A stretch of DNA of 64,000 bases, taken from the IMG/VR virus record IMGVR_UViG_3300009155_000035. One strand, given 5' to 3'. Source of the DNA: a virus (taxonomy: Duplodnaviria > Caudoviricetes). How positions within the stretch are numbered: the stretch's first letter is position 1; every line of letters begins with the position of its first letter. Below are positions 3,278 to 36,900 of the stretch, piece after piece. Below the pieces are notes generated by a model. That model was given only the letters and a program-made list of their open reading frames with translations. It was not told the origin of the DNA and ran no database searches. Both the position numbers and the translations under genes were made by a program.

Positions 3278-3280
3278 TCT

Positions 3281-3700: not shown

Positions 3701-3716
3701 TAAGTAGTGTTATAGT

Positions 3717-3792
3717 TTCCGGATCATCGTTCTAAGTCTAGCTCCTAGATGATCCGTTTTAGAGGTACCTTTAAAAGGTACCTCTTTTTTTC
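3717..3792 (+). ncRNA. Candidate small structured RNA or 3'UTR element
   Basis: cggatca(tc)...(ga)tgatccg stem at 3720-3756 with inner tctag-ctc-ctaga; promoter-like TTGACA (3690) / TATAGT (3711) upstream; terminator downstream. Confidence 0.35.
3761..3791 (+). terminator. Intrinsic terminator
   Basis: agaggtacct-ttaaa-aggtacctct followed by a T-run. Confidence 0.8.
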
Positions 3793-3810
3793 TTGATTAA
3801 ATACAACATC

Positions 3811-5744: not shown

Positions 5745-6445
5745 AGCAAGCCATAAGCGAAGTGATGATCAAACGCAATCGTGATTTGAAATTTCAACCC
5801 CCACCTTATAACAAAAATGCCTCATTTGATTGGATACAATGGCATTCAGGTTTGCCTTGGCTCAGGCTTGATATCCCAGTTCCCGCAGACACAATCTTAA
5901 AAGAAATTGCCAAAATTGAACCGTACTTGACAGTGCACCGTGAAGAGTATTCAGAACACGCAGGCTGGAAAAGCTTTTGTATTCATGGCAAAGCTTATGA
6001 TGCCACTCGCGAAGATACGCATTATAACGATCAACGGCCTTATACTTGGACCACAGAAGCATTGCAACACATGCCAGAAACAGTTGAGTACTTTAAAAAT
6101 CATTGGCCAGGATCTGGATACAGGCGTATTCGAGTTATGTTGCTGGAGCCTGGCGGGTACATTACCATACATGCAGACGCTACTTCACCGGGCATGCGAG
6201 CAGTCAACATATCAATTACTCAACCAGAACAATGCGACTTTATCATGTCTGGGCATGGCACTGTGCCATATCAGACAGGGTCTGCCATGTGGTTAGATAC
6301 ATCTAATTTGCACGTGGTGTATAATCACAGTACCAAACCCAGATGGCATATCATAGTACATCAACAGTTTGACAACATCAAGTTCCAAGACTTGGTTGTA
6401 AACAGTTACAAAATGTTGTATAATAACATTGATGCGCCCAGATAA
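5738..6445 (+). CDS. 2OG-Fe(II) oxygenase (aspartyl/asparaginyl beta-hydroxylase-like)
   Basis: RIRVMLLEPGGYITIHAD (HxD), distal H in HVVYN, R in PRWHIIV. Confidence 0.75.
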   Translation: MLKQAISEVMIKRNRDLKFQPPPYNKNASFDWIQWHSGLPWLRLDIPVPADTILKEIAKIEPYLTVHREEYSEHAGWKSFCIHGKAYDATREDTHYNDQRPYTWTTEALQHMPETVEYFKNHWPGSGYRRIRVMLLEPGGYITIHADATSPGMRAVNISITQPEQCDFIMSGHGTVPYQTGSAMWLDTSNLHVVYNHSTKPRWHIIVHQQFDNIKFQDLVVNSYKMLYNNIDAPR

Positions 6446-7559
6446 TTTTTGTTATGCACCCTGGTCCGGACTTGAGATCATGCAAAGTGGTAAGATATTG
6501 CCATGTTGTAAGTTCATGGACGAATACTATGACCGACGATACAACATAACACAAGACACAGTGGATGATTATCGTAACAGCAAGTACCTGGCCGAGATCA
6601 AACAAGAATTTTTAAATGGGCAATGGCCACGTGGTTGTGAACGTTGCAAGCTTGAAGAAGAATCACATATAAAAAGCAAACGTCAACTTGACTATGATCG
6701 TTGGCAAGACAAGTATGCAACCTATGACATCAACAGCAACGAATGTTTGTCACTGGGTATTGCATTTGGTAACACTTGCAATTTAAAATGCATCATCTGT
6801 CATCCATCTGCATCCAGCAAGTGGCAGAAAGAATATAGTGATTTATATGGTGTGACTTTTCCCATAATAGAAAGTTTCCGTAAGCCTGTTATTAATTCAA
6901 TTACAAGCCTAGCCCCCAATCTCATGCACATAGATATCTATGGTGGAGAACCATTTTTGTCCGGCATTGCAGAACATGAACAACTGCTTGACTACTACAT
7001 TGCATCAGGTCAAGCAAAAGAAATCACAATCCATTATACCACAAACGGCACACTATGGCCTGGCGAATCTTGGTTCAGTCGCTGGCAGCATTTCAAAGAG
7101 ATTGATTTGCAAATAAGCATAGATGGCATTGAAGAACGATTTGGCTATCTAAGATTCCCGGCCAAATGGAGCGACCTAGAACACAATGTACAACAATACA
7201 TAAGTCGCCAAAGTAGCAATTTTAGGCTAAGTGTGGCTCACACCGTGAGTGCATTTAATGTATACTACTTGGACGAATTTATTTCTTGGTGCCATGCCGT
7301 GGGCTTGCCAAAGCCCTGGTTAAGTCGATTACACAAACCCGAAGCCATGCGGGCCAACGTTTGGCCACGTGAAGTACGTGAAGTAATATCTCAGCACCTG
7401 CGCAAAAGCCGTTGGCCCGAAGTAAAGAACTGGGCTAGACTAATATTAGAAGATGGTCCTGACAGATTTGAGGAGTTTTGTGACCTTGTCAGCAAACATG
7501 ATCGGTATAGAAAGTTAGATTACAGGATAATTTTTCCCGAGATGGCACAGTACATATGA
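6429..7559 (+). CDS. Radical SAM protein with N-terminal twitch/SPASM-like Cys cluster
   Basis: CNLKCIIC, GGEP, N-terminal CYAPW...CC...CERC. Confidence 0.85.
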   Translation: MMRPDNFCYAPWSGLEIMQSGKILPCCKFMDEYYDRRYNITQDTVDDYRNSKYLAEIKQEFLNGQWPRGCERCKLEEESHIKSKRQLDYDRWQDKYATYDINSNECLSLGIAFGNTCNLKCIICHPSASSKWQKEYSDLYGVTFPIIESFRKPVINSITSLAPNLMHIDIYGGEPFLSGIAEHEQLLDYYIASGQAKEITIHYTTNGTLWPGESWFSRWQHFKEIDLQISIDGIEERFGYLRFPAKWSDLEHNVQQYISRQSSNFRLSVAHTVSAFNVYYLDEFISWCHAVGLPKPWLSRLHKPEAMRANVWPREVREVISQHLRKSRWPEVKNWARLILEDGPDRFEEFCDLVSKHDRYRKLDYRIIFPEMAQYI

Positions 7560-14439: not shown

Positions 14440-15173
14440 AGTTTAAAAAAATTGTAGGTTTTGGGGATAGCTGGGTTTGGGGCGACGAGTTACTGGACCC
14501 AGTTTTGCTTTCTAAAGACAAAAATGCACATCCAAGTTGGATGCAAAATACTCCTTACAGAGAAAGCAATTGCTTTTTGGGATTGCTAGGCAAACATTAC
14601 AACGTCCCAGCTGAAAACTTTGGAATCCCCGGTGGAAGTTTACAAAGTACCATTTGGACTTTTCTTTGGTGGCTGCATCACGAACCCAATCCATCAGAGT
14701 GCCTGGTACTAACCGGCTTAACTGAAGGTAGTAGAATGAGTTTTTTCAATCCCAACCATCAACGCATGAACAACGACCCACCGTGGAACAAATTTGTACA
14801 CAGTGCCTGGGTACATGCCGGGGTTGAAGACGGGCCTGTTACTCGAGACTGGTCCGATATGATCAAACGTTACATGGTATTAAGTGAAAGCGATCCACTG
14901 AGCTTGTTAAATTACCAACAAGCATTGTATACATTTGATGGCATTGCTGCCAGACGAAATATACCCATGCTAATTTGGGATATAAGTCCCCCACAAGAAG
15001 AATTATCAGTACCAACAAAAATTTGGACAGGCTTTAACTTTGTACATTGGCTAAGACGCCATCCAAATGAACTAGAGTTAACATTTCCGGGCGGCCACCC
15101 GAATGAAAAAGGGCACTTAATACTCCGAGATATGTTGCAAGATGAGATTGATCGTGTTATACTATCACAGTGA
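14436..15173 (+). CDS. SGNH/GDSL hydrolase-like protein
   Basis: GFGDSW block I and GGHPNEKGH block V. Confidence 0.7.
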   Translation: MKFKKIVGFGDSWVWGDELLDPVLLSKDKNAHPSWMQNTPYRESNCFLGLLGKHYNVPAENFGIPGGSLQSTIWTFLWWLHHEPNPSECLVLTGLTEGSRMSFFNPNHQRMNNDPPWNKFVHSAWVHAGVEDGPVTRDWSDMIKRYMVLSESDPLSLLNYQQALYTFDGIAARRNIPMLIWDISPPQEELSVPTKIWTGFNFVHWLRRHPNELELTFPGGHPNEKGHLILRDMLQDEIDRVILSQ

Positions 15174-16150
15174 TCAACGTATTCGATTATCTGCCAGGCA
15201 AACGCAAACAAACACCATCAGGATGGGTCAGCTTCAATGCGGTTTGTTGCACTCATAATGGCAACAGCTTAGACCGACGCCAGCGAGGTGGATTCAAAGC
15301 AACCGAACAAGGCTGGAGCTACCACTGCTTTAATTGTGGGTATACTGCTAGTTTTATTCTTGGAAGGCAGCTAACATTCAAAGCCCGTAAGCTATTGACC
15401 TGGCTAAACGTGCCAGATGCAGAGATTGAACATGTTAACTTAGAAAGTCTAAAGCATCGCAACATACACGGCATCATAGACGACAGGCAACAAATGTTTA
15501 ATACTCTTCAAGCCATTGAGTTTGAAGAACGAGATCTACCGCCCTTTGCAGAGTTGTTGACCGATGAAAATGCGGGGTACACAGAATATGTGAGATCCAG
15601 GTGCGTGCCAGAAGACTTTCCTGTGATGATACAAGAGCGCAACGACGGTGTTCATTGGGTGCGTCCGCACGTGGTAATTCCGTTTACACACAATGACAAA
15701 ATTGTGGGATGGACTTGTAGATTTTTAGACAACAAGCAACCCAAGTTTATCAGTGACAGCCAGCCAGGTTATGTATTTGGCACAGACTTGCAACACAGCG
15801 ATTGGCAGTATGTGATTGTTACTGAAGGAATTTTTGATGCACTCTCTATAGGCGGTCTAGCGTTAATGCACAATACTATAAGCGATGCTCAGGCAAGATT
15901 AATACGCAGTCTAGGAAAAGAAATTGTTGTAGTACCAGATCAAGACAAACCGGGTATGAAGTTGGTTGACCGCGCAGTAGAGCTTAACTGGGCAGTGAGT
16001 ATACCCAATTGGCCCGAGGACGTCAAAGATGTCAACGATGCAGTGATTAGATATGGCAAGTTGGCCACTTTGATGATGATTATGCAGGCAAAAGAAACAT
16101 CCAAGATCAAAATAGAGATGCAAAAGAAAAAGGTACTAAAGCGTGTCTAA
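15170..16150 (+). CDS. DNA primase (T4 gp61/DnaG-like: Zn finger + TOPRIM)
   Basis: CC..H...HCFNC, VTEGIFDAL, VPDQD, KDVND. Confidence 0.9.
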   Translation: MINVFDYLPGKRKQTPSGWVSFNAVCCTHNGNSLDRRQRGGFKATEQGWSYHCFNCGYTASFILGRQLTFKARKLLTWLNVPDAEIEHVNLESLKHRNIHGIIDDRQQMFNTLQAIEFEERDLPPFAELLTDENAGYTEYVRSRCVPEDFPVMIQERNDGVHWVRPHVVIPFTHNDKIVGWTCRFLDNKQPKFISDSQPGYVFGTDLQHSDWQYVIVTEGIFDALSIGGLALMHNTISDAQARLIRSLGKEIVVVPDQDKPGMKLVDRAVELNWAVSIPNWPEDVKDVNDAVIRYGKLATLMMIMQAKETSKIKIEMQKKKVLKRV

Positions 16151-17243
16151 TTCATGGTGCCCAGAAATATTTCGCAGTATCTATGTTGATAGATTTAATG
16201 ATGATCAAATACGATTTGCACCCTGCTGTCAAGCACTGCCAACAATAGAACCTTTGTCTACATTTGATTTTGCCACCAATCAATATCTAACTGGTCTAAG
16301 AGAACAAATAGCACAAGGCAAAAAACCCACTGAGTGTGATTCATGTTGGAAAGTAGAACGTGTAGGGCAAAAAAGTCGTAGACAAAGTGCTATTGAATTC
16401 TTTTCAATTGAGCCTAATATAGACGTGGTGTTAGAAAGTATTGATCACAGCGCCACATGGGCTTGCAATTCTGCTTGTGTAATGTGCAAACCACAGCATA
16501 GCAGTATGTGGGCCAGTGAGTTAAACTACAGTGCAGACGAATTGTACAAAGCTGGACGACGTTTTCAAAAAGCCAATAATTTTTTAGAGTACCTTGATAT
16601 TACAAACATTAAGAAAATACATTTCAATGGCGGAGAGCCGTTGTTAAACAACGATCAAGTTGAGTTGTTGGAAAAACTAAAGACCAACAACAAGTTGTCA
16701 TCTACATTTGTGAGCTATAATACAAACGGCACAGTTTATCCCTCACAAAAGATTTTGAATTTATGGGCAGAGACTCGTTTGGTAAAGTTGTTTTTTAGTT
16801 TAGATGCAATTGGCCCTGCATTTAACTACATACGTTGGCCAGGAGATTGGAACCAAGTGCGTGACAATATTTTGAGACTGCGTGATACTGCACCATCAAA
16901 TGTTATGTTTGGGATCAACGCCACAGTAGGTGCTCATAATTTATTAGAGATTGGTGCAATGTATCAGTGGTTTGACGCAAATTTAAAAACCAACCGAGAA
17001 GGTGACCCATCGGATTTTTGTTGGCAATTTGCCGATAACTTTCCAGTGTCTGCGGTGCCCGAGCAAGTTAAAAATAAAGCCATCGAACAATTGTCCAATG
17101 TTGATGTATTGACTCCATTGGCAGACCATGTTAAATATAACCCACCCAGCAGTTATCCGTGGACACAAACGTTAGATACAATTGATCAACGACGCGGAAC
17201 CGACTGGCGTACTGTGTTAGAAATTGGAAAATATGACTGTTAA
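16143..17243 (+). CDS. Radical SAM protein with N-terminal twitch-like Cys cluster
   Basis: CNSACVMC, FNGGEPL, N-terminal WCP...PCC...CDSC. Confidence 0.85.
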   Translation: MSNSWCPEIFRSIYVDRFNDDQIRFAPCCQALPTIEPLSTFDFATNQYLTGLREQIAQGKKPTECDSCWKVERVGQKSRRQSAIEFFSIEPNIDVVLESIDHSATWACNSACVMCKPQHSSMWASELNYSADELYKAGRRFQKANNFLEYLDITNIKKIHFNGGEPLLNNDQVELLEKLKTNNKLSSTFVSYNTNGTVYPSQKILNLWAETRLVKLFFSLDAIGPAFNYIRWPGDWNQVRDNILRLRDTAPSNVMFGINATVGAHNLLEIGAMYQWFDANLKTNREGDPSDFCWQFADNFPVSAVPEQVKNKAIEQLSNVDVLTPLADHVKYNPPSSYPWTQTLDTIDQRRGTDWRTVLEIGKYDC

Positions 17244-17958
17244 CTATCAATTTTACGAAACCACAACATGCAAGGCCGCCTGGGACAACTACATGGGCCT
17301 AGATACTAGTATGCGTCCATTGAATGGCTTGTGTTTGATTTACTACGTGATCAAACATTTTCAACCACAGAGCATTTTAGAAATTGGATTTAGAGAAGGC
17401 ATGACATTTGCCGCAATGCTAGAAGCATCCACGCCCGGTTGTCACTTAACTGGTATTGATATCAAACTCACAAGAGAACACTTTGACAAATACTTTAACA
17501 AGATACAACTTACACACGATAGGCGTATTGATTTGTTTGAAATACCCAGTCAAAACTTTATTCCAGATCGCAAATATGATTTTGTCAATGTTGATGGATG
17601 TCACGAGTACCCACAGGTATTGACTGACCTAGCGACAGTGAGTCGTGTTGTGGAAAACAATGCAATCATCATGCTTGATGATTATGCCACACCCGGAGTG
17701 GACCAAGCCATTGATGATTTTATGAAGCTAGACACAGGATTTGTGCCGTTTTTAAAAGATCGTCAAGCAGTGTTTTTTCATCACGAGAGTCACGATGCTT
17801 CGGAGTTTCTTGACAATGTATTAGACAAAACATTCTTTGACTTAGCATCACTTTATAATGTACAATACAAAGGACACAACACTAAAGAAGTAAACTTTTG
17901 GCCAGCCATAAAAGATAACAAAATATTTTGGCTCATGTGTAACCGACTAAAAATATAA
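17233..17958 (+). CDS. Class I SAM-dependent methyltransferase
   Basis: ILEIGFREG, FVNVDGCHEY, IMLDDY. Confidence 0.75.
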   Translation: MTVNYQFYETTTCKAAWDNYMGLDTSMRPLNGLCLIYYVIKHFQPQSILEIGFREGMTFAAMLEASTPGCHLTGIDIKLTREHFDKYFNKIQLTHDRRIDLFEIPSQNFIPDRKYDFVNVDGCHEYPQVLTDLATVSRVVENNAIIMLDDYATPGVDQAIDDFMKLDTGFVPFLKDRQAVFFHHESHDASEFLDNVLDKTFFDLASLYNVQYKGHNTKEVNFWPAIKDNKIFWLMCNRLKI

Positions 17959-17959
17959 T

Positions 17960-19396
17960 ATGCTTAAAGAATACACAGTTGATATACAAAGATTGTTTTT
18001 GGAGATGATGTTAGAGGACGCACAAAGTTATGTGCGTGTACAGAACATCTACAACCCACAGAACTTTGACAGGAGTTTACGTGCTGCCGCCGAGTTTATC
18101 AAAGAGCATACTGACAAGTTCAAGACCATGCCCGAGCGTACACAGATTGCAGCCGCAACCAGTGTAAAGCTTCAGCCGGTGCCAGATCTCAACGAAGGTC
18201 ACTTTGAATGGTTTATGCAAGAGTTTGAAAGTTTTACCAAGCGCCAAGAACTTGAAAGGGCTATTCTTAAAGCGGCAGACTTGCTGGAAAAAGGTGAGTT
18301 TGACCCCGTTGAGAAACTGATCAAAGATGCTGTTCAAATATCCCTGACCAAGGACCTGGGCACAGATTTTTGGCTAGATCCGGAATCCATGTTCAGTCGA
18401 TACTTTGATGCAGGTGGACAAGTAAGCACAGGATGGCCACAGCTGGACAAGTTGCTGTATGGTGGATTCAGTCGAGGTGAACTCAACATCTTTGCAGGTG
18501 GATCGGGATCAGGCAAGTCCTTGGTCATGATGAACATTGCGTTGAATTGGGTACAACTGGGACTGCATGGTGTTTATATCACGCTTGAACTTAGTGAAGA
18601 GCTCACAGGTCTGCGCACAGCGGCCATGTTGACTAACATGAGCACCAAGGACATTCGCAAAGACAAAGAAACTGCATCGTTAAAAATCAAATTGGTTGGT
18701 AAAAAAGCAGGTAGTTATCAAGTCAAGGCATTGCCAGCACAAAGCAATATCAATGATATTCGCGCATTCTTGAAAGAGTATCAAATCAAAACAGGACGCA
18801 AAGTAGACTTCATGATGATTGACTACTTGGACTTGTTGATGCCGGTTAGTGCCAAAGTCAGTCCCAACGACTTGTTTGTTAAAGACAAGTACGTGAGTGA
18901 GGAACTGCGTAACTTGGCCAAAGAGCTGGGTATCTTGATGGTAACAGCTTCGCAGTTGAACCGAAGTGCTGTGGAAGAAATTGAATTTGATCACTCGCAC
19001 ATTTCGGGCGGTATCTCCAAGATCAACACAGCAGACAACGTGTTCGGCATCTTTACCAGTCGTGCCATGAAAGAGCGTGGCAAGTATCAGATCCAGTGTA
19101 TGAAGAGTCGTAGTTCTACAGGTGTGGGACAAAAGATTGATTTAGACTACAACATGGAAACCATGCGTATTACAGACAGTGGTGACGCAGAAGGCGAGGG
19201 TTTCAGTAAAAAGCCTTCAATGAATATCATGGAAAGTATCAAGGCAAAGGCCAGTGTTAGTGCGAGTACCAGTGAAACAAGTTCAACATCCTGGGAAAGA
19301 GCCACAGGAACGCCAGCGTGGGAACAACCTCCCAAGGTAGAAGCTGAAGTTCAAAGTGCAAAACTAAAACAGTTGCTTGGACAAATTAAAAAATAA
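17960..19396 (+). CDS. dnaB: Replicative DNA helicase (DnaB/T4 gp41-like)
   Basis: GGSGSGKS, ITLEL, MIDYLDL, TASQLNR. Confidence 0.92.
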   Translation: MLKEYTVDIQRLFLEMMLEDAQSYVRVQNIYNPQNFDRSLRAAAEFIKEHTDKFKTMPERTQIAAATSVKLQPVPDLNEGHFEWFMQEFESFTKRQELERAILKAADLLEKGEFDPVEKLIKDAVQISLTKDLGTDFWLDPESMFSRYFDAGGQVSTGWPQLDKLLYGGFSRGELNIFAGGSGSGKSLVMMNIALNWVQLGLHGVYITLELSEELTGLRTAAMLTNMSTKDIRKDKETASLKIKLVGKKAGSYQVKALPAQSNINDIRAFLKEYQIKTGRKVDFMMIDYLDLLMPVSAKVSPNDLFVKDKYVSEELRNLAKELGILMVTASQLNRSAVEEIEFDHSHISGGISKINTADNVFGIFTSRAMKERGKYQIQCMKSRSSTGVGQKIDLDYNMETMRITDSGDAEGEGFSKKPSMNIMESIKAKASVSASTSETSSTSWERATGTPAWEQPPKVEAEVQSAKLKQLLGQIKK

Positions 19397-20406
19397 TGTA
19401 CGCATATCAAGATATACGTCATGTGCATTTAGAAATTTCTAGTCGGTGCAATGCAGAGTGCCCGCTGTGTCCTAGAAATTTTTATGGATATCCCTACAAT
19501 GATGGGTACATTGAGCATGATATGACATTGGGTGAAGCACAACGTATATTCTCGGTTGATTTTATCAAACAGTTGGGCGCAGTACAAATCAATGGTAACT
19601 TTGGCGACATCGTCATGAATCATGATGCTATCTCCATTGTTGAATATTTGCGTAGTCATAACAATGTCATGGACATCACTGTTACCACAAACGCTGGCGC
19701 CAGAGATAAAAAATTCTGGCGAGAACTGGCAAGATTACGATGCCGTGTTATTTTTTGTATTGAGGGGTTTGAAGACACTCATCATCTCTACAGACAAAAT
19801 ACACGCTATGAAGTCGTTATAAAAAACGCCAAGACATTTATTGACGCGGGCGGTACAGCTACCTGGAAAATGATAGACTTTGCGCATAACAAGCATCAGC
19901 AAGAACCAGCTCGCCAACTATCTAAAGACATGGGGTTTAAGAACTTTCTTTTGGTAGATTACGGACGAGATACTGCCCCAGTATTTGACCACAGTGGCAA
20001 TTTAAAACACGTCATTGGCAACCCCACAGAGACAAATTTTAAAAAAATGTTTTTTACGCGAACTGTCAACAGAGTATTTCTTAAAGATATCATTGATGAT
20101 AGAACCCCTGCTCCAATCAGTTGTGCAGTCAAGGGATCAAGTTCAGTGTACGTGTCCAGTACCGGTGATGCGTACCCATGTTGTTTCTTGGGATTTAATC
20201 CCAAAACATATGGGCATGGTAATTATCATGCCGCTGCCAACAAACAAATATCTGAATTAATTTACGAAAACAATGCTATTGAACATGGGCTAGAACATGC
20301 TATTAAATGGTTTGATAATATTGTAAAGGCCTGGGAAATACCCGACTTCCTCAGTGGCCGCCCAATCATTTGTCATGACTATTGTTCCAAAAACGGTAAA
20401 TATTGA
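19396..20406 (+). CDS. Radical SAM protein with C-terminal SPASM/twitch-like Cys residues
   Basis: CNAECPLC, GNFGD, YPCCF, CHDYC. Confidence 0.85.
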   Translation: MYAYQDIRHVHLEISSRCNAECPLCPRNFYGYPYNDGYIEHDMTLGEAQRIFSVDFIKQLGAVQINGNFGDIVMNHDAISIVEYLRSHNNVMDITVTTNAGARDKKFWRELARLRCRVIFCIEGFEDTHHLYRQNTRYEVVIKNAKTFIDAGGTATWKMIDFAHNKHQQEPARQLSKDMGFKNFLLVDYGRDTAPVFDHSGNLKHVIGNPTETNFKKMFFTRTVNRVFLKDIIDDRTPAPISCAVKGSSSVYVSSTGDAYPCCFLGFNPKTYGHGNYHAAANKQISELIYENNAIEHGLEHAIKWFDNIVKAWEIPDFLSGRPIICHDYCSKNGKY

Positions 20407-20422
20407 ACAAAGAGACGGTATC

Positions 20423-20680
20423 ATGCAAAAGAAAACTCGCAGTATTCTCGAAGAGCTAGACTCAATATATCAAGAACGTCAGCAGACCCGCGATCGACAA
20501 TACATTATTGAAAGTCGTGCTAGCAATGTCATTGCCAGTGCTATTCGTTTAATTGAACAAATTGAATCTACATTTACACCCGAGCAAGCAGATAATTTAA
20601 ATCGAAAATTGCTAAACGCAATTAGAGACCGAGATCCTGGTAAATTTATTAGAACCGTGAGACGTACCAATGCTGGCTGA
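20423..20680 (+). CDS. Hypothetical phage protein
   Basis: Likely start ATG 20423; coupled to the next gene. Confidence 0.6.
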   Translation: MQKKTRSILEELDSIYQERQQTRDRQYIIESRASNVIASAIRLIEQIESTFTPEQADNLNRKLLNAIRDRDPGKFIRTVRRTNAG

Positions 20681-22595
20681 AGGCGGTAATGTTTTTAAAG
20701 ATCCTGCCGGTAATCCAGCAACTCAGCGTATAAATCAAGCTGATGTTCCTGCGACTATCGCATTTGTAGAAAAAGTACTGGGGATGAAATTCCCACAAGA
20801 GCGTTGGCTAGGATCAACTGGCCGTAAGCCCACATCTGGTGACCTTGACCTTGGGGTAGATACTAGCGAAGTAACCAAAGATCAAATTGCTGACAAGTTA
20901 ACACAATGGGCACAGTCACAAAAACAAGATCCACGTGAATGGGTTAAAAAAGCAGGCGAAGTACATTTTAAAACACCCATTGCTGGTGATGCTAAAAAAG
21001 GTTTTGTGCAAACAGATTTTATGTTCTTTCCCAATCTTGATTGGGGAACATTTTTTTATGGCGGCGCCGAAGGATCTAACTACAAGGGCATGAACCGCAA
21101 TGTTCTAATGAGCAGTATTGCTAAATCCCTAGGACTCAAAGTGGGCGCCAATGGTATGTTCAGTCGTACTACAAATCAACTGGTCAAGGGCGGCATGGAC
21201 CCCGACTATGTGGCTCGAGTATTGCTAGGATCAAATGCAACTAAAGAAAATCTCAAGAATGTTGAAAGCATTTATGCCGCACTAGAAAATGATCCAGAGC
21301 GTGATGCCAAGCTGAAAGATTTTAGAGAATATCTTGCACGAGAAGGACTCACTGAACCTGGTGCACCTGTGCAAGAAAATGAAGTCAGCTTTATGTCTCG
21401 CTTACGTGATAGAATTGTAAATCAAGGCTATCACATTATCATTGAATCCGAAGCTCCGGCCAAGAAGAAAGATCCAAGGATCCCACATCCTGAAGACGCT
21501 TTCTTCTTAGGTGGTAGTGCAGCCGCATCAAAAGCCATACAAGGCATGGAAAATGCTATTGCCAATGCTGGTAAAACCACTATCAAGTGGGATGGTAAAC
21601 CTGCATTGATCTGGGGCAGATTGCCCAACGGCAAACTAGCAGTCATGGACAAATATATGTTTGACGCCAAGTATCCGGCACAAAGTCCCGAAGACTGGGT
21701 CAAGTATGATCAACAAAAAAAATCTGGTAATTTAAGAAGCGACTTGTATCCCAAGCTCAAAGCCATATGGCCAGGATTAGATGCTGCCACAATAGGCCCT
21801 GGCTTTTATTGGGGTGACTTGATGTGGGCCGGAGAACTACAACCACAAGGCGGTAAGTACACATTCAAACCTAATTTTGTACAGTATTCAATCCCAACCA
21901 ATAGCGAACTAGGTCAAACTATTCCCGGCAAAACTGGTGGCATTGTTGTTCATCAGCAGTTTGCTAATTTAGGCGATCAAGTAGCCCAGCCTTGGGATGG
22001 TCAGGGCTTGCAGAATGTTCGTGGAGGGGTTGATATTATCAAGCCCAATATTGGCATTACATTTAAACTAAAGCCACCTGCAAAATTAATTGCTGCCGCA
22101 AAACAAGCGGTTGGCACATACGGCGCAGCCGTGGATCAACTGTTGAATTCTCTACCGGCTAGCACACGAGCACAAATGCAGACCTATTTCAATCAACGCA
22201 TTATTGGCGCTACAAAATTCAGTATGCCCAACTGGTTGAAAACCAAGTCTAGTGCTCGTCAGTACAGTGAACTAGTAACTGGTAATCCAGACGTCAATGG
22301 ACAATACAATGCCAAAACTGGCAATATCCCCGGCAAACTCTACACACTTGACGCCAACAACAAACCAGTGCCCAGTCCGGCTCACCTGGGACTGCTGGCA
22401 ATTTGGAACTCAATATACAATTTAAAATTAAACCTGGCACAACAGCTTGAACAACAAGTACAAGGGCTAGAGCAAAGCACTGGTGGTCAAGCCGAGGGCG
22501 AAGGATTTGTTGTTCCTACACCAACTGGGCTAGTCAAGTTGGTGAATCGTGGGGTATTTTCAGCAGGAAATGCCGCACAAAATAATCCCAAGTAA
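20670..22595 (+). CDS. Two-domain protein: Pol-beta-type nucleotidyltransferase + ligase-like (KxDG) domain
   Basis: LGSTG..SGDLDL..QTDF at the N-terminus; KWDG, GDLM, EGFVV and VKLVNRGVFS at the C-terminus. Confidence 0.55.
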   Translation: MLAEGGNVFKDPAGNPATQRINQADVPATIAFVEKVLGMKFPQERWLGSTGRKPTSGDLDLGVDTSEVTKDQIADKLTQWAQSQKQDPREWVKKAGEVHFKTPIAGDAKKGFVQTDFMFFPNLDWGTFFYGGAEGSNYKGMNRNVLMSSIAKSLGLKVGANGMFSRTTNQLVKGGMDPDYVARVLLGSNATKENLKNVESIYAALENDPERDAKLKDFREYLAREGLTEPGAPVQENEVSFMSRLRDRIVNQGYHIIIESEAPAKKKDPRIPHPEDAFFLGGSAAASKAIQGMENAIANAGKTTIKWDGKPALIWGRLPNGKLAVMDKYMFDAKYPAQSPEDWVKYDQQKKSGNLRSDLYPKLKAIWPGLDAATIGPGFYWGDLMWAGELQPQGGKYTFKPNFVQYSIPTNSELGQTIPGKTGGIVVHQQFANLGDQVAQPWDGQGLQNVRGGVDIIKPNIGITFKLKPPAKLIAAAKQAVGTYGAAVDQLLNSLPASTRAQMQTYFNQRIIGATKFSMPNWLKTKSSARQYSELVTGNPDVNGQYNAKTGNIPGKLYTLDANNKPVPSPAHLGLLAIWNSIYNLKLNLAQQLEQQVQGLEQSTGGQAEGEGFVVPTPTGLVKLVNRGVFSAGNAAQNNPK

Positions 22596-23907: not shown

Positions 23908-24438
23908 ATGAATATAACAGACAACACACTTCGACAATTAGAACAAGTGCTGTCGGCTGACTTTGAATCAGCCAAACAAAATTTAATTTTTAGTACTGAA
24001 AACGGTTATCAAGTTTTTGATCGTTATACCATATTAAAAAAACAAAATAATGTAACTGTTACAGAATACACTGGTGATCCTCTGCCTTTTACCAGCGTGA
24101 GAACAGCACTGAGCTGGTGCATAGCAGACAAATACAATCAGATTAAACTAGCCAACGAAATCAAACGATTAGATGAAAAGCGTTGGCGATTACGAAACGA
24201 CGTGAGCTTTTCTCAAAAGCTCACTAGTAGATTTAAGGACCCCGGCACTCGGGAAACCGCACTACTTAAATTAGAAACCAAACAAGCTTTGCTTAACAAT
24301 GTAGAAATTGGTTTAGAAAAATGTGCAAACTTAGCTAAATATTGGCAACTACGGGGATTCAACGATGAAATTGAACGAACTAAGCGCAGTGCGCAAAACA
24401 GAGACAATCGCTCGAGTATTCGAGTCTTACCTAGGTAA
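23908..24438 (+). CDS. Hypothetical phage protein
   Basis: 176-aa ORF in a coupled operon. Confidence 0.6.
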   Translation: MNITDNTLRQLEQVLSADFESAKQNLIFSTENGYQVFDRYTILKKQNNVTVTEYTGDPLPFTSVRTALSWCIADKYNQIKLANEIKRLDEKRWRLRNDVSFSQKLTSRFKDPGTRETALLKLETKQALLNNVEIGLEKCANLAKYWQLRGFNDEIERTKRSAQNRDNRSSIRVLPR

Positions 24439-25219
24439 GAAGGTAGACTTTCAGGCATTGTCAAACACACAGGCTCAACACATGTTACGCCGTGTTAGAT
24501 CTTTGATCAGTGAGCAGAGAAGTTCATCGGGCATTTACAAGAGCGAGAAAAATCCTGCTTACTTGAAATTAATGATGATGGAACAAGCTTTGGCCAGTCA
24601 TATCAATGAAGTTGGCACCACGCCAATGGCAATTGATGTCAACGATCCAAAGACCAAACAGATCATGCAAAAAGCCGGTAATGGTCAAACACTGAACCCT
24701 GAAGAACAAAAAACCATGAACGCTATTGCTCTCATGAAAAAAGAGGGCAAGAAAGCAGGCATGAAGCGCATGGTCAAAGAAAGCGAAATTCAACAAGCTC
24801 AAGTTGTTCTAGCAAGCCAAGACATGCTGGATCGTATTCAGAAAATGACCGAAGATATCAGCGAAATGCAATTCAAAGATCTACCAGCATTGACTGACAG
24901 TATCAAGAATGACATGGGAACCGAACAAGCCACTGCATATCAAGCACAAGCCAGTGCCGCATTGAGCACATTACTAAGTGCATTGCAACAAGGCAAAACT
25001 CAACTAGAAGCGGCTCAGGGTGCTATTACTGGCACTGGTACTGACCTTGCAGTGCCAGGCGCTGATGATGACCTGGGTGCTGATCTAGACGCTGACGTAG
25101 ATGCAGCCGCCTTGGCAGCACCAGACATGGGCGGAGATGAAGAAGATATATCAGTGGATGCTGATATTGACGCAGAAATTGAGCCAGCATCATCCCTGGG
25201 TAGAGAACGCAGAAAATGA
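24365..25219 (+). CDS. Probable head/scaffold-type protein with acidic C-terminal tail
   Basis: MKLNEL leader, helical body, D/A-rich tail ending LGRERRK. Confidence 0.5.
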   Translation: MKLNELSAVRKTETIARVFESYLGKKVDFQALSNTQAQHMLRRVRSLISEQRSSSGIYKSEKNPAYLKLMMMEQALASHINEVGTTPMAIDVNDPKTKQIMQKAGNGQTLNPEEQKTMNAIALMKKEGKKAGMKRMVKESEIQQAQVVLASQDMLDRIQKMTEDISEMQFKDLPALTDSIKNDMGTEQATAYQAQASAALSTLLSALQQGKTQLEAAQGAITGTGTDLAVPGADDDLGADLDADVDAAALAAPDMGGDEEDISVDADIDAEIEPASSLGRERRK

Positions 25220-25735: not shown

Positions 25736-26059
25736 ATGAAAAAAATATTTGTAAGCATGTTGTTAGCTGGGGTAATGATGCCAGCATTTGCACAGCATCA
25801 CCAACACCAACATGGACATGGACATGGACATGGATACTGGCACCACCGTGGGCATGGCAGTGGATGGAATTGGGTTGTCCCAGCTGTTATTGGCGGTGCA
25901 GTGGTTTATGGTGTAACACGCCCTGATCCAGTTATTGTACAGCAACCAGTTATTGTGCAACCTCCTGTACAGGTAATACAACGACAAAATTGCAGTCCCT
26001 GGACAGAAACAGAAAATTCTGATGGTACAATTACCCGAACAAGAACATGCGCACAATAA
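25736..26059 (+). CDS. Secreted His/Gly-rich protein
   Basis: Signal peptide ending AFA, QHHQHQHGHGHGHG, PV repeats, C-terminal Cys pair; AAGGAG RBS. Confidence 0.65.
   Translation: MKKIFVSMLLAGVMMPAFAQHHQHQHGHGHGHGYWHHRGHGSGWNWVVPAVIGGAVVYGVTRPDPVIVQQPVIVQPPVQVIQRQNCSPWTETENSDGTITRTRTCAQ
25811..25834 (+). repeat. 4 x 6-bp tandem repeat (catgga) encoding HG
   Basis: catggacatggacatggacatgga. Confidence 0.9.
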
Positions 26060-26163: not shown

Positions 26164-26556
26164 ATGGCTTACAGCGAAAAAGTTGTTGATCATTACGAAA
26201 ACCCCCGCAACGTGGGCTCCTTTGAAAAGGGCGACGAAGATGTGGGCACTGGCATGGTGGGTGCACCTGCCTGCGGCGATGTAATGAAACTACAAATAAA
26301 GGTGGATCATGATACAGGTATTATTACAGATGCAAAATTTAAAACGTATGGCTGCGGCTCAGCGATCGCGAGCTCGAGTTTGGTTACTGAATGGGTCAAA
26401 GGAAAAACTCTTGACGAAGCCGGGTCAATTAAAAACTCCGAAATCGCTCAAGAGCTAGCTCTTCCACCGGTCAAAATACATTGCAGTATCCTTGCCGAAG
26501 ATGCCATCAAGGCCGCAGTAGAGGACTACAGAAAGAAGCATGCTAACAGTCACTGA
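26164..26556 (+). CDS. iscU: Fe-S cluster scaffold IscU
   Basis: MAYSEKVVDHYENPRNVG, GAPACGD, FKTYGCGSAIAS, LPPVKIHCS. Confidence 0.97.
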   Translation: MAYSEKVVDHYENPRNVGSFEKGDEDVGTGMVGAPACGDVMKLQIKVDHDTGIITDAKFKTYGCGSAIASSSLVTEWVKGKTLDEAGSIKNSEIAQELALPPVKIHCSILAEDAIKAAVEDYRKKHANSH

Positions 26557-26860
26557 CAGTGCGGCAAAGAAGATTCAGCAAGTAATTGCCAAACGTGGCC
26601 GGGGTCTGGGCATTCGGCTAGGTGTTAGAACCACAGGTTGCTCGGGGCTAGCTTATGTGTTAGAATATGTAGATAGTCCACAAGAAACTGATCAAACTGT
26701 CGAATGCAATGGATGCAAGATATTCATTGATCCGAAAAGCTGTCCATATTTGCAAGGTGTAACTGTTGATTATGTACGCCAAGGTCTCAATGAAGGCTTT
26801 GAATTTAAAAATCCCAATGAACGTGACCGTTGCGGTTGCGGAGAAAGCTTTAGAATTTAA
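26540..26860 (+). CDS. iscA: A-type Fe-S carrier IscA
   Basis: GCSGLAY and NPN...CGCGESF. Confidence 0.95.
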   Translation: MLTVTDSAAKKIQQVIAKRGRGLGIRLGVRTTGCSGLAYVLEYVDSPQETDQTVECNGCKIFIDPKSCPYLQGVTVDYVRQGLNEGFEFKNPNERDRCGCGESFRI

Positions 26861-33631: not shown

Positions 33632-33901
33632 ATGCCAGCAGTGTGCAGACTTGGCGATCCAGACAACGGCAAGGGTCGAATTCTTGAGGGTGTAAATTCC
33701 GTGTATGTCAATGGCAAACCCATTGCCGTCGTTGGAGCCAAGGTAAGTCCTCATGGTAAAGGTAAGCATCGATCTGCTAAAGTACAACAGGGAAGTGGCA
33801 CGGTATTTGCCGGTGGCAAAGCAGTAACTTTTGTTGGCGCCATGGACAATTGCGGACATACTAGAAGCTCTGGCAGTGGCGATGTATTTGTGGGCGGTTG
33901 A
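33632..33901 (+). CDS. PAAR-like spike tip protein
   Basis: PAVCRLGD, VYVNGKPIAVVG, PHG...H, DNCGH...GSGDVFVG. Confidence 0.85.
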   Translation: MPAVCRLGDPDNGKGRILEGVNSVYVNGKPIAVVGAKVSPHGKGKHRSAKVQQGSGTVFAGGKAVTFVGAMDNCGHTRSSGSGDVFVGG

Positions 33902-36900
33902 CCATGGGTGCATTGTCATCAGTGATGGCCACTGCTGGTGCAGGTTTATTACCTAATCCCCCTCAGGATGTTGGCACCACAATAATCGCACCAAACAACA
34001 TTGCAAATGCTGTGGCAACATATGGCAATGTTTCAATTATATCAACATTTCAAAGTATTTGCTCTACTGCACTAGGTGCAGTAAGTGGCGGAAATCTATC
34101 TCAAACAAACTTATTAGGCTTGTTGGCCCTGGGCTCCAACACATTCCCTGCACTAACCAGTGTGTTACCGGAAAATACCGCACCCACTAGTGTACTGGTT
34201 TCTGGTTTAGCTAGCCCCTGGGACAGTTCTATTTCTTACATAGCCGGCGACGTAGTTTCCTATAATGGCAATGTGTTTATTGCCAAGGTTGCAAGCAAAA
34301 ATCAAACACCCACAACTGGCACATACTGGAATCTTTACATTGTATGTTATAGCTTACCAACGGTTGTTGGAATTGATTCAACAACAGTGTCCGGCAACGG
34401 GGACCAGTCAAAATTTTGTCAAGCTTTTATGGCTGCTCAGGGATATATTTCCCAGGCCAATGCAACTATTAATTCAGTAAAAAACAGTGCGATCTTGGCC
34501 GAAACATTTACACCAGCAAATGGTGGCATGGACAATTTGACCACTGGTGGGTTGAATCAAGTAACCAGCGACATTGCCGGGCTTGGTGCAGATTTAAAGA
34601 AACTGGGAAACTTGATTAATCTAGCACAGTTGGATTATTGGGGACTGCCTGGAGAGTTGTTGGCACAACTTGGGCGTGTGGGCAATGGTATATTACCAGG
34701 GCTGGCCACTCCATTAACCACTGCCGGTATAACAACACAACAAATTTCCAGTTTGTCCAAAGGGTCAAACACACTAGATGCGCAAGCAGAAAAAACTGCA
34801 TATACAGTAATGACAAAAATCACTGGGTCGGTTCTTTCCCAGGTACTAGCTGTGTTTGGGGTTACAACTAGTAACATAGCCAACATGGCACAGTTGTTGA
34901 ATCCAAAAGTTATAATGCCAACTGCTTACAGCAAATTGTTGTGTCCAACAAAAGATGGACTTGTGCCAATCTATGTCAACGGCGCCACAAATCAAAATCT
35001 AATTACCACAGTAGACGATGCCAACATCGTTGCTTACTCGGGACAAACTGGTACCAATGGTTACAACACACTTAAATTAATTACTCCACCAGATCAAGCC
35101 CTGGCAAACAAAGCATTTGCCCAAGCAATGCAACAGGTAAAAAATGTTTCAACATCGTTGTTGCCTGGTATTAGCACAGCAATGTTGGCGGTAGAATCAA
35201 ACACTGGATTGACTGCGGTTAAGAATTTGACCAAACCAGTTCCGGCCACTGTGATTACTGCATACCAACAACAATTAGGTCAAGGATCGGGTCCTAACGG
35301 CACACTGGTTATTGGTGACATTTTGGGAGTAGCATATAAAGAATCTATTTCCACTAGCCTTACCACTATTGCCAACGCAGTTTCTTCCATTAGCGCATCT
35401 TCTCTCAACAGTGTTTATACCAATATGTCAGATACCTTGGCTGGTACATTTGGGCCATCAACTGGTCCTGTGATTATCCCCAGTGGTCCCGGAGCTGGTA
35501 CGTACACTACCTGGAACGAAGCATTTAGTACAGCATTGACACCAGCGGCTGCCTCGGCAATTTCTACTATTGCATCCAGTAATGCCAGCAAGGTGACTGC
35601 AACCAATACCCAGTATACTTCAATTATAACCGAAATCGTTAAAGAAATAACAAATCAAAACCGAGCACAAATTGATTTTACTGCGTTCGAAGCTAATTCA
35701 ACTTCGAGCACAATGAGTTTTTCAACAAACTTACATGAGTATGGAAACGATCCAGACGCAAATGATGTTTTGCTCAAGTTTACTAACACCGCTACACTAG
35801 GTGGTCAGTCGTTGATTAGTAGTTTGCGCGAAGGCAGAAACATCGAAGCATTGCAAAATGCTGGAATCAAGCTTGACACACAACTAGACTCTGCTCCGGG
35901 ACCGGTGATTAGCAACACAACAACATCTGCAACACCTTGGTCTCGGGCATCACAGTATTGGAGCAGAAGCTCCACGCTATCAAACACTTTTCGAAACTGG
36001 GGCATTTTACGCTCGTGGAAAGGGCAACAGATTCCAAATTGGGGATCAGACGGCACCACAGAACAGACTGGCACAGTATCCGTAAAGGCCAGTGGTACCA
36101 ATGTGGATGTTGTTATTGTTGATGCAGTGCTTGATCCTGCACATCCTGAGTTTGCAGTAAATGCAGATGGTACAGGTGGATCACGAGTAAAATACTACAA
36201 CTGGTTTGATGCAAATATACCGGGCGATCCCTCTGCTGGTAGTCGATATAACCCACCCATAACAACCAATGCACCGAGTTCTGCTGATGACAGCAGGCAT
36301 GCTTGCCATGTAGCCGGCATCGCAGTCGGAAACACACAAGGGTGGGCACCAAAGGCAAACATTTTTAACATATCACCCCAGTATGTAACTGGTGGTGTTC
36401 CTTATTTGTATTTGTATCAGTACATATTGGCCTGGCACAACAAAAAGAAAGCCACTGGCAACACCAATCCAACTATTCTCAACAACAGTTGGTACAGTCG
36501 TTACACAATTCCTTATACCAGCATTACTTCCTTGACATATCGAGGAGTAACTTACGCAGGGCCGTTTACTCTTGTTCAACTGTTGGGCTATGGCATTACC
36601 AATGATGGGGCTGGTAACTGTATTGTTGCCCTGCAAAATTCAACTATGGATGCACAAATAAAAGCATGTATCAACGCCGGTATTATTTTTGTAGGATGTG
36701 CTGGCAATAACGATACAAGAATTGCAACATCCAGTGATGCAGACTTTAATAACACATTGACTGCCACCGGCTTCAATGGCGGCAGTCCAATTTATTATGC
36801 TCGTGGTAGTTCGCCAGTTGCCACACAAAATGTTATATGTGTTGGCGCAATTCGCGCACCAAAGAATGATGGCAAGGCTAGTTCAAGTAACTGTGGTCCT

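What the first reader, a model, noticed from the sequence alone, without database searches (positions are those of the whole stretch)
20670..22595. Probable virion-packaged polyprotein joining a Pol-beta nucleotidyltransferase to an RNA-ligase-like domain
Seen: the N-domain has LGS(48-49)...GDLD (D58, D60)...QTD (D116), the hG[GS]x-DxD...D signature. The C-domain has KWDG (K306), GDLMW, EGFVV (E611) and VKLVNRGVFS (K623), matching motifs I, III, IV and V of covalent nucleotidyltransferases, with motif V resembling Rnl2-type K..N..FS. The leader (MLAE) and the linker (LTE, VQE, IIE) carry Glu sites like prohead-protease cuts. Established: phage RNA ligases repair tRNAs cut by host anticodon nucleases, and Pol-beta NTases include CCA-adding and cyclic-oligonucleotide synthases. 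Inference: two enzymes packaged as one chain and injected for RNA repair or anti-defence. Caveat: the motif III-IV spacing is unusually long.
Basis: partly seen in the sequence, partly recalled or inferred. Interest (0 to 1): 0.85.

Follow-up and report, generated by a model that had tools for sequence, protein, structure and literature searches.

The report
Phage PolX-like polymerase fused to ligase
This jumbo-phage gene joins a stripped-down family-X-type DNA polymerase to a previously unnamed ligase-fold enzyme (Pfam DUF6267), most likely a fill-and-seal repair protein for broken nucleic acid, and its domain borders look like head-protease cut sites.

Summary
Both AlphaFold2 domain models are confident (pLDDT 92 and 94).

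- **N-terminal half:** it is not a generic Pol-beta nucleotidyltransferase. Its ten best structural matches are all family X DNA polymerases, covering palm plus thumb, like the minimal ASFV PolX.
- **C-terminal half (DUF6267):** it has the ligase/capping nucleotidyltransferase fold. RNA ligases match best and DNA ligases tie with them. It has no OB domain, and a ~125-residue helical insert explains the long motif III-IV spacing.
- **Pairing:** the two modules are fused in thousands of metagenomic phage proteins and are adjacent genes in Atu_ph07 and Phosso. They lie a few genes downstream of the replicative helicase.
- **Function:** most likely a fill-in/tailing plus sealing repair enzyme. DNA versus RNA as substrate is unresolved.
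- **Virion cargo:** the evidence is mixed. All four hydrophobic-x-Glu tripeptides lie at the leader and linker and none in the domain cores (about 4.4 expected). [LI]-x-E precedes nearly every copy of either module. Against this, homologues were not reported in PA5oct or cyanophage virion proteomes.

Other first-stage readers of this scan flagged the same fusion on other genomes.

The parts
20423..20680 (+). Upstream 85-aa ORF whose stop overlaps the target's start codon (ATGCTGGCTGA), so the two are probably translationally coupled. It is conserved in this position in relatives.
   Evidence: It hits phrog_11854 'virion structural protein'. It has homologues directly after the DnaB helicase in PA5oct and Phosso. 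The same gene order is seen in L055 and L008.
20670..22595 (+). Whole gene, 641 aa: PolX-like domain, linker, DUF6267 ligase-fold domain.
20670..20681 (+). Four-residue leader MLAE ([LI]-x-E directly before the invariant GGNVF). Candidate propeptide.
   Evidence: E at P1 and L/I at P3 in 186 of 193 N-terminal copies and in 29 of 29 internal copies (P3 is L, I, V or F there). Four relatives start M|GGN with no leader.
20697..21266 (+). Family-X-polymerase-like palm plus thumb (residues ~10-199).
   Evidence: AF2 model pLDDT 92.3. Foldseek finds PolX, Pol mu, Pol lambda and Pol beta at E~1e-4, probability 1.0. VIA gives Pol beta 139-335 at Z 10.6 over 165 aa and the whole ASFV PolX chain at Z 9.5 over 158 aa.
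20811..20849 (+). G48-S49 ... D58-x-D60: nucleotide-binding loop and first two catalytic carboxylates.
   Evidence: Positions. Invariant or nearly invariant.
21015..21017 (+). D116, third catalytic carboxylate (VQTDF).
   Evidence: Invariant.
21345..21455 (+). Inter-domain linker (residues 226-262). It holds LTE 227-229, VQE 234-236, IIE 257-259 and a conserved helix (RLRDRIVNQG).
   Evidence: pLDDT is low here. The sites are conserved in 27, 31 and 31 of 32 relatives. R244 and R246 are invariant.
21456..22592 (+). DUF6267 domain (residues 263-641): covalent-nucleotidyltransferase (ligase) fold without an OB domain.
   Evidence: Pfam PF19782, E 4e-27. AF2 pLDDT 94.4. VIA top matches are RNA ligases then DNA ligases, Z 5-7.2. 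After DUF6267 relatives, BFVD lists viral RNA ligases.
21486..21497 (+). H273-P-E275-D276, an invariant motif at the start of the long N-terminal helix of the ligase domain.
   Evidence: The cyanophage proteins begin at this motif.
21585..21596 (+). Motif I, K306-W-D-G: candidate AMP-accepting lysine.
   Evidence: Invariant. hhalign pairs it with KLDG of the Atu_ph07 ligase-like protein.
21813..21827 (+). Motif III-like GDLMW (D383 invariant).
22080..22451 (+). Helical module (~residues 471-594) inserted between motif IIIa and motif IV.
   Evidence: Secondary structure of the model.
22500..22562 (+). Motif IV (E611-G612) and motif V (K623 ... R627 ... F630) on adjacent strands.
   Evidence: Invariant. 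Strands 350-355 and 358-362 of the model. This stretch aligns to PA5oct gp256.

Best explanation
The gene encodes a two-enzyme nucleic-acid end-repair protein. Residues ~5-225 are a minimal family-X-type polymerase (palm plus thumb, no 8-kDa or fingers domains, like ASFV PolX). It would add nucleotides to a 3'-OH using D58, D60 and D116. Residues ~263-641 (DUF6267) are an OB-less member of the ligase/capping nucleotidyltransferase fold. It would be adenylylated on K306 and seal the resulting nick. The two work in series: fill or tail, then seal. The domain folds, the invariant residues and the repeated pairing of the two modules are shown here. Catalysis, the substrate (I lean about 55:45 to DNA nicks and gaps over broken RNA) and the cofactor are inferred. 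A secondary claim, at about 45%, is that a gp21-type Glu-specific head protease cuts the chain at [LI]-x-E sites after E4 and in the linker, and that the pieces travel in the capsid. The confidence given is for the core claim (PolX-like polymerase plus ligase-fold enzyme acting in series on polynucleotide ends), not for the substrate or the cargo part.
For: - **Fold of the N-half:** the ten best VIA matches are all PolX enzymes covering palm plus thumb (Z 7.5-10.6, 148-171 aa). Other Pol-beta nucleotidyltransferases reach Z<=7 over ~85 aa only. Foldseek gives probability 1.0.
- **Fold of the C-half:** ligases make up most of the top 35 VIA rows. They are also enriched among the weak Foldseek PDB and Swiss-Prot rows. 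Motifs I, III, IV and V are invariant.
- **Pairing:** more than 3700 relatives were found, and all 120 listed span 78-100% of the query. In Atu_ph07 and Phosso a separate ligase-like gene sits directly upstream of a standalone N-domain gene.
- **Context:** the gene or its modules lie 1-5 genes after the replicative helicase in this window, L055, L008, PA5oct, Atu_ph07, Phosso, Melnitz, P-HM1 and S-WAM1.
- **Precedent:** PgVPolX is a proven PolX-ligase fusion for base excision repair (PMC5537341).
- **Processing:** all 4 h-x-E tripeptides lie at the leader or linker and 0 in 600 core residues, against 4.4 expected. In the 16 closest relatives the cores hold 15 against 64.7 expected, while 12 other window proteins hold 90 against about 68.
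- **Boundary motifs:**
- **Protease:** PF03420 is present in all 5 complete genomes that carry a module.
- **Partner protein:** the cytidylyltransferase-like partner (T4-GC190) is a mass-spectrometry-detected virion protein (PMC3037559).
Against: - The ligase-fold matches are only Z 5-7.2 and Foldseek E>0.09, below the level at which a match alone is convincing.
- Neither half has sequence-level membership in any Pfam polymerase or ligase family.
- There is no OB domain or motif VI, and D replaces the usual E in motif III.
- The phage already has a canonical ATP-dependent DNA ligase at 37316-38695.
- RNA ligases rank first structurally.
- Against packaging: the leader is 4 aa, whereas the T4 targeting sequence is 10 aa (PMC9026906).
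- PA5oct gp256 has no ESI-MS/MS note although its neighbours do.
- Cyanophage T4-GC71 is not flagged as structural.
- No head protease was found on the 27%-complete contig or on 5 related fragments.
- The relatives share ancestry, so the depletion counts are not independent.
Confidence: 0.62

Rival explanations
1. RNA repair. The N-half restores nucleotides lost from cleaved tRNA or mRNA ends, and the C-half is an RNA ligase that rejoins them. This would counter host anticodon nucleases, like the RlaP plus Rnl systems of jumbo phages.
For: RNA ligases head both structure lists: NgrRnl Z 7.2, T4 Rnl1 6.6, Trl1, REL1 and Rnl2, and viral RNA ligases in BFVD. The domain lacks the OB fold of DNA ligases. 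The Atu_ph07 neighbour has a weak PF09414 RNA_ligase match and is named RNA ligase in UniProt. RlaP-with-ligase is a described pairing (PMC7824862). A canonical DNA ligase already exists in the window.
Against: The N-half resembles template-reading PolX enzymes including the thumb, not RlaP or CCA-adding enzymes. The window has no tRNA genes, and none of the roughly 45 window ORFs scanned against PHROGs or Pfam matched a polynucleotide kinase, 2H or RtcB family. The gene is consistently linked to the replicative helicase. Z values for RNA and DNA ligases differ by less than 1.
Confidence: 0.27
2. A replication or repair enzyme made during infection that is never packaged. The [LI]-x-E elements are simply structural parts of the domain borders.
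For: The gene sits in the replication module between DnaB and exonuclease/RNR. Homologues are not flagged in four virion proteomes. The L-x-E-GGN element is equally conserved inside long proteins, which fits a folded element. Cyanophage copies have no leader.
Against: Four relatives start M|GGN, so L-x-E is dispensable for the domain. The h-x-E depletion of the cores is specific to this clade and absent from the non-packaged homologues PA5oct gp256, the Atu N-domain protein and the cyanophage proteins. Standalone relatives carry 9-13-aa leaders of T4-CTS style. Relatives are fused to ART-PolyVal and Tad3 in polyvalent proteins.
Confidence: 0.5
3. Not a polynucleotide enzyme. The ligase-fold domain, with the often-linked cytidylyltransferase-like (HIGH-motif) enzyme, acts on nucleotides or NAD-related small molecules as a counter-defence. 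The N-half would be a small-molecule or protein nucleotidyltransferase.
For: DUF6267 is adjacent to, or fused with, CTP_transf_like domains in cyanophages, Melnitz, S-PM2 and many metagenomic proteins. Relatives of the N-half are fused to ART-PolyVal, Tad3, NT5C and Amidoligase_2.
Against: Domains of polyvalent proteins need not cooperate (PMC5512222). The PolX thumb and the full ligase motif set point to polynucleotide substrates. No ligase-fold enzyme with a small-molecule acceptor is known to me (from memory). In this genome the CTP_transf_like gene lies 20 kb away on the other strand.
Confidence: 0.08

Closest known systems
PgVPolX of Phaeocystis globosa virus (PolX core fused to a ligase; PMC5537341)
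   Same: [quoted passage not shown] It has been shown to fill a gap and seal it.
   Different: Its ligase half is of the NAD+-dependent type and its polymerase has dRP-lyase activity. Here the ligase half is DUF6267, with no sequence relation to known ligase families, and the polymerase lacks the 8-kDa and fingers domains. The host is a bacteriophage rather than a giant virus.
ASFV PolX (minimal 174-aa family X polymerase)
   Same: Palm plus thumb only. The whole chain aligns to residues 18-198 (Z 9.5, 158 aa).
   Different: About 13% identity. The phage domain has an extra invariant N-terminal GGNVF...T..R segment and a helical C-terminal extension, and it is fused to a ligase.
ATP-dependent RNA ligases (NgrRnl/Rnl5, T4 Rnl1, Rnl2, Trl1) and DNA ligases
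   Same: Nucleotidyltransferase fold. KxDG, EG and a downstream Lys in the canonical order. No OB domain, as in RNA ligases.
   Different: Z is only 5-7.2. A ~125-residue helical insert lies between motifs IIIa and IV. There is an invariant HxED motif in an N-terminal helix. Motif V reads K-x-V-x-R. No Pfam ligase family is matched.
RlaP NTase plus RNA ligase repair systems (Burroughs and Aravind, cited in PMC7824862)
   Same: A Pol-beta-superfamily nucleotidyltransferase partnered with a ligase in jumbo phages.
   Different: PF10127 is not among the 20 families listed for the 42 N-domain members at E<=5. The fold is PolX-like with a thumb.
T4 internal proteins and Alt (capsid-targeted, cut by gp21), and polyvalent proteins (PMC9026906, PMC5512222)
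   Same: [LI]-x-E directly at the domain borders. Relatives have ~10-aa leaders or sit in multi-domain chains with ART-PolyVal.
   Different: This protein's leader is 4 aa. No proteomic evidence exists. The gene is in the replication module.

Membership tests
Family X DNA polymerases | Pol-beta palm with hG[GS]...DxD...D | tested here: met
   G48, S49, D58, D60 and D116 are invariant or nearly so. The palm aligns to PolX enzymes.
Family X DNA polymerases | Thumb subdomain following the palm | tested here: met
   Alignments run through Pol beta 139-335 and the whole of ASFV PolX. Non-PolX nucleotidyltransferases align over ~85 aa only.
Family X DNA polymerases | 8-kDa (dRP lyase) and fingers/HhH domains | tested here: not met
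   The domain starts at the palm and nothing lies upstream but a 4-aa leader. ASFV PolX also lacks these domains.
Family X DNA polymerases | Sequence membership (Pfam DNA_pol_B_palm / DNA_pol_B_thumb) | tested here: not met
   No hit for this protein. Among 42 relatives there are only 3 sub-threshold hits, E 0.016-0.15.
Family X DNA polymerases | Template-directed polymerase activity | not testable with these tools
   Needs a biochemical assay.
Covalent nucleotidyltransferases (ATP/NAD ligases, capping enzymes) | Motif I KxDG lysine | tested here: met
   K306, D308 and G309 are invariant in 32 and in 39 sequences.
Covalent nucleotidyltransferases (ATP/NAD ligases, capping enzymes) | Motifs III, IIIa, IV and V in order on the nucleotidyltransferase fold | tested here: inconclusive
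   D383, F399/Y406, E611-G612 and K623 are invariant and lie on strands in the right order. A residue-by-residue superposition could not be made, and Z is only 5-7.2.
Covalent nucleotidyltransferases (ATP/NAD ligases, capping enzymes) | OB domain with motif VI (DNA ligases, capping enzymes) | tested here: not met
   The model ends 10 residues after motif V, with no OB domain.
Covalent nucleotidyltransferases (ATP/NAD ligases, capping enzymes) | Lysyl-AMP formation | not testable with these tools
   Needs labelled ATP or NAD+.
RlaP (PF10127) | Profile match | tested here: not met
gp21-type prohead-protease substrates / capsid-targeted proteins | [LI]-x-E at the cut site | tested here: met
   Sites at 2-4, 227-229 and 257-259 (and V-x-E at 234-236) are conserved.
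gp21-type prohead-protease substrates / capsid-targeted proteins | About 10-residue N-terminal targeting sequence | tested here: not met
   The leader is 4 aa. Relatives have 9-13-aa leaders. The T4 requirement is taken from PMC9026906.
gp21-type prohead-protease substrates / capsid-targeted proteins | Cognate Peptidase_S77 protease in the same genome | tested here: inconclusive
   Absent from the 92.7-kb, 27%-complete contig and from 5 related fragments. Present in 5 of 5 complete genomes that carry a module.
gp21-type prohead-protease substrates / capsid-targeted proteins | Presence in virions | tested here: inconclusive
   There are no data for this phage. Homologues PA5oct gp256 and cyanophage T4-GC71 are not flagged. 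The partner T4-GC190 is flagged.

The most novel reading that the evidence does not exclude
DUF6267 is an unrecognised family of polynucleotide ligases. It would be the 'missing' ligase of T4-like cyanophages. It is core in 16 of 16 cyanomyovirus genomes, and the three Kyanoviridae-type genomes checked here have no ATP- or NAD-dependent ligase. In jumbo phages it is fused to a minimal PolX, cut out by the head protease and injected with the DNA, so that nicks and gaps in the incoming genome can be repaired before any phage gene is expressed.
Probability: 0.2. Interest if true: 0.85.

Novelty: new variant of a known kind. Interest (0 to 1): 0.62.

Why it matters
- **A function for DUF6267.** The family is very abundant: more than 3700 relatives in one search, and it is core in marine T4-like cyanophages.
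- **Minimal PolX enzymes in phages.** It would show that minimal PolX enzymes, so far known from ASFV, are common in bacteriophages.
- **The cyanophage ligase question.** It would make the old question of how cyanomyoviruses seal Okazaki fragments without gp30 directly testable (PMC2984593).
- **Injected repair enzymes.** If the capsid-cargo reading holds, phages would join ASFV-like viruses in carrying their own DNA-repair enzymes into the cell (the ASFV comparison is from memory).

Tried and rejected
- **PDB by sequence.** Sequence and profile searches found nothing meaningful for either half.
- **Own DNA ligase.** hhalign of the C-domain profile against the window's own DNA ligase gave nothing.
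- **PA5oct gp258 and gp257.** These are the mass-spectrometry-positive proteins at the syntenic position. They are not detectable homologues of the two halves. The true PA5oct homologue is gp256.
- **Cyanophage upstream gene.** The gene upstream of DUF6267 in cyanophages is not an N-domain relative.
- **Window ORF 24365-25219.** It is unrelated to the P-HM1 'virion structural protein'.
- **T4 late-promoter motif.** TATAAATA is not enriched, with 3 matches against 3.0 expected.
- **tRNA genes.** None in the window.
- **Head protease and gp23.** Searches on the own and related fragments found no protease. The only gp23 signal was a short N-terminal-region match on one fragment.
- **Literature.** No paper mentions DUF6267, and none of the listed results of the phage PolX searches describes a phage PolX.
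- **CCA-adding and CD-NTase readings of the N-half.** Rejected, because those enzymes align only over the core at low Z.
Full report
**1. Observation**

The window holds an uninterrupted ORF at 20670-22595 (+) of 641 aa. A script located every motif at the stated residue:
- LGS 47-49, GDLD 57-60, QTD 114-116
- KWDG 306-309, GDLMW 382-386
- EGFVV 611-615, VKLVNRGVFS 622-631

The only curated family hit is Pfam DUF6267 on residues 272-634 (E 4e-27). PHROGs gives an unnamed family. A PDB sequence search gives nothing.

The protein is not an orphan.
- One word-indexed search returned more than 3700 relatives. All 120 listed span 78-100% of the query, and some lie on contigs of up to 361 kb.
- An exhaustive search returned 1139 cluster representatives.
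- In 32 full-length relatives (50-86% identity) all proposed catalytic residues are invariant.
- In wider single-domain alignments, D58, D60, D116, K306, D308, G309, D383, E611, G612 and K623 remain invariant.

**2. The N-terminal half**

An AlphaFold2 model built from 42 sequences is confident (pLDDT 92.3).
- Foldseek against the PDB returns only family X polymerases at the top: Thermus PolX, Pol mu, Pol lambda and Pol beta, at E about 1e-4 and probability 1.0.
- The Foldseek-independent VIA search gives the same answer. Its ten best chains are all PolX enzymes.
- Examples are Pol beta residues 139-335 (Z 10.6, 165 aa) and the entire 174-aa ASFV PolX (Z 9.5, 158 aa).
- TUTases, CD-NTases, MenT and CCA-adding enzymes follow at Z<=7 and align only about 85 residues of the shared core.

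So the domain is palm plus thumb of a PolX, without the 8-kDa and fingers domains. This is the ASFV PolX architecture.

At sequence level it belongs to no Pfam family. Only 3 of 42 relatives give sub-threshold DNA_pol_B_palm or DNA_pol_B_thumb hits, and RlaP and NTP_transf_2 are not among the listed families.

Residues 5-22 (GGNVF...T18..R20) are a family-specific and nearly invariant N-terminal addition. Residues about 200-262 are a helical extension and linker.

**3. The C-terminal half**

The model from 39 sequences is very confident (pLDDT 94.4, pTM 0.91).
- Foldseek matches are weak (E>0.1 against the PDB, E>0.09 against Swiss-Prot), but they are enriched in DNA ligases I and IV, the ASFV ligase, Trl1 and an archaeal RNA ligase.
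- In the VIA search over 48,161 chains the top rows are Naegleria RNA ligase (Z 7.2, 180 aa) and T4 Rnl1 (6.6). Trl1, REL1 and T4 Rnl2 follow, and then many ATP-dependent DNA ligases and a capping enzyme. Ligases make up most of the top 35 rows.
- These Z values are below the level at which a match alone is convincing. What makes the assignment credible is the combination with invariant KxDG, an acidic residue on the next core strand, aromatic residues F399 and Y406, EG and a downstream Lys. All lie on strands in the canonical order.
- The 'unusually long' motif III-IV spacing is a helical module at about residues 471-594 inserted into the fold.
- There is no OB domain.
- Against viral models, the best hits after DUF6267 relatives are viral RNA ligases. 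A 446-aa PA5oct protein and the Atu_ph07 'RNA ligase' also appear.

RNA and DNA ligases cannot be separated on this evidence.

**4. The two modules belong together**

They occur separately (N-domain about 230-290 aa, DUF6267 about 360-400 aa), fused, and inside longer chains.

In Atu_ph07 a 324-aa protein sits directly upstream of a standalone N-domain gene.
- It carries KLDGS, EGVVFE and KTKIF motifs and a weak PF09414 match.
- Foldseek links it to the DUF6267 model (E 3e-3).
- Phosso has the same arrangement.

The pairing therefore recurs with a second, different ligase-like protein.

The position is also conserved, a few genes after the replicative helicase:
- this window: primase 15170-16150, DnaB 17960-19396, small ORF 20423-20680, then the target
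- the related contigs L055 and L008
- PA5oct, Atu_ph07 and Phosso
- the T4-like phages Melnitz, P-HM1 and S-WAM1

**5. Likely mechanism**

The most economical reading is fill-or-tail followed by sealing of broken polynucleotide ends. [quoted passage not shown] It performs gap filling, dRP lyase and ligation in base excision repair (PMC5537341).

The RNA alternative also has a precedent, the RlaP nucleotidyltransferase with RNA ligases in jumbo phages (PMC7824862).

For DNA:
- the resemblance to PolX includes the thumb
- the gene is linked to the helicase in many lineages

For RNA:
- RNA ligases rank first and the domain has no OB fold
- the window already encodes a canonical ATP-dependent DNA ligase at 37316-38695

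The window holds no tRNA genes. I lean slightly towards DNA.

**6. A side result on cyanophages**

The Pfam family is built around cyanomyovirus proteins; P-HM1 gp161 matches at E 6e-137.
- In the supplementary table of Sullivan et al. 2010 this gene cluster (T4-GC71) has coordinates in all 16 cyanophage genomes.
- Cyanomyoviruses are reported to lack gp30 ligase and mostly RNase H, and the authors left open that distant homologues might exist (PMC2984593).
- I found neither PF01068 nor PF01653 in the complete genomes of P-HM1, S-WAM1 and Melnitz. PA5oct has an ATP-dependent ligase and Atu_ph07 an NAD-dependent one.

DUF6267 is thus a candidate for the missing ligase in those phages. In this jumbo phage it is an additional enzyme.

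**7. The virion-cargo idea: evidence for**

- The protein has only four [LIVM]-x-E tripeptides. They lie at residues 2-4, 227-229, 234-236 and 257-259, that is, at the leader and the linker. None lies in the 600 core residues, where shuffling predicts 4.4.
- In the 16 closest relatives the cores hold 15 against 64.7 expected. Twelve replication and metabolic proteins of the same window hold 90 against about 68.
- [LI]-x-E directly precedes GGN in 186 of 193 N-terminal copies. All 29 internal copies have E at the same place, with L, I, V or F two residues before it. Four relatives start M|GGN, so the tripeptide is not needed by the domain.
- 197 of 198 DUF6267 domains have h-x-E 3-17 residues before the HxED motif.
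- Standalone relatives, and four consecutive Melnitz genes, carry 9-13-residue leaders that end in [LI]-x-E. In T4 a 10-residue targeting sequence is processed through its residues 8 and 10 (PMC9026906).
- All five complete genomes that carry a module encode a gp21-type protease.
- Relatives of the N-domain sit in polyvalent proteins with ART-PolyVal, Tad3, DUF5661 and NT5C. That class is predicted to be packaged (PMC5512222).
- The cytidylyltransferase-like protein that is adjacent to, or fused with, DUF6267 was detected in S-SM1 virions.

**8. The virion-cargo idea: evidence against**

- The leader here is only 4 aa.
- The gene lies in the replication module.
- PA5oct gp256 carries no ESI-MS/MS note although ten neighbours do, and it shows no h-x-E depletion.
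- Cyanophage T4-GC71 is not flagged as structural, and those proteins have no leader.
- No protease was found on this 27%-complete contig or on five related fragments.
- The depletion counts come from related sequences and are not independent.

I put processing and packaging of this particular protein at about 45%.

**9. Novelty**

No paper in the searchable library mentions DUF6267, and none of the listed results of the phage PolX searches describes a phage PolX.

Polymerase-plus-ligase repair fusions and nucleotidyltransferase-plus-ligase pairings are known kinds. This one is a new variant, built from a minimal PolX and an unrecognised ligase-fold family, and it is widespread in phages.

Other first-stage readers of this scan flagged the same fusion on other genomes, two of them also calling it PolX-like. 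I reached that reading independently.

**10. Limits**

- No full-length model was made.
- Nothing here tests activity.

Noticed in passing
window 6429-7559, 16143-17243, 19396-20406 (radical SAM); 17224-17958 (methyltransferase); 26164-26556 (NifU_N/IscU-like); 26540-26860 (IscA-like): Three radical-SAM/SPASM enzymes and a methyltransferase are interleaved with the primase and helicase genes. The phage also carries its own Fe-S scaffold and carrier genes. This could be a nucleotide or DNA hypermodification or peptide-modification pathway.
   Followed up: partly
window 25736-26059: A 107-aa ORF with a signal-peptide-like start followed by a His/Gln/Gly-rich run (HHQHQHGHGHGHG). It has no family match.
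   Followed up: no
window 33898-37236: A 1112-aa protein with a C-terminal subtilase (Peptidase_S8) domain and a weak CBM_5_12 match, placed between the RNR genes and the DNA ligase.
   Followed up: no
window 1-459 (-), continuing beyond the window start: The contig's only CTP_transf_like gene is here (E 4e-15), about 20 kb from the target. In cyanophages the same family is the immediate neighbour or a fusion partner of DUF6267.
   Followed up: partly
L002 (Melnitz) 2881-7544: Four consecutive genes after the helicase start with T4-CTS-style leaders ending in [LI]-x-E. The four are a hypothetical protein, DUF6267, a 130-aa protein and a cytidylyltransferase-like protein. This may be a block of capsid-targeted proteins.
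   Followed up: partly
P-HM1, S-WAM1 and Melnitz complete genomes: None has a PF01068 or PF01653 ligase. Each has DUF6267, which is present in 16 of 16 cyanomyoviruses in Sullivan et al. 2010.
   Followed up: partly
L083 = G005:C1:74028-77156: A 117-aa ORF matches only positions 2-44 of the Gp23 profile, the N-terminal region of the major capsid protein (E 6e-10).
   Followed up: no
residues 238-250 of the target (window ~21381-21419): A strongly conserved linker helix (RLRDRIVNQG; R244 and R246 invariant). It is also found at the C-terminus of some standalone N-domain proteins and at the N-terminus of one standalone DUF6267 protein. It may be a docking element between the two enzymes.
   Followed up: no
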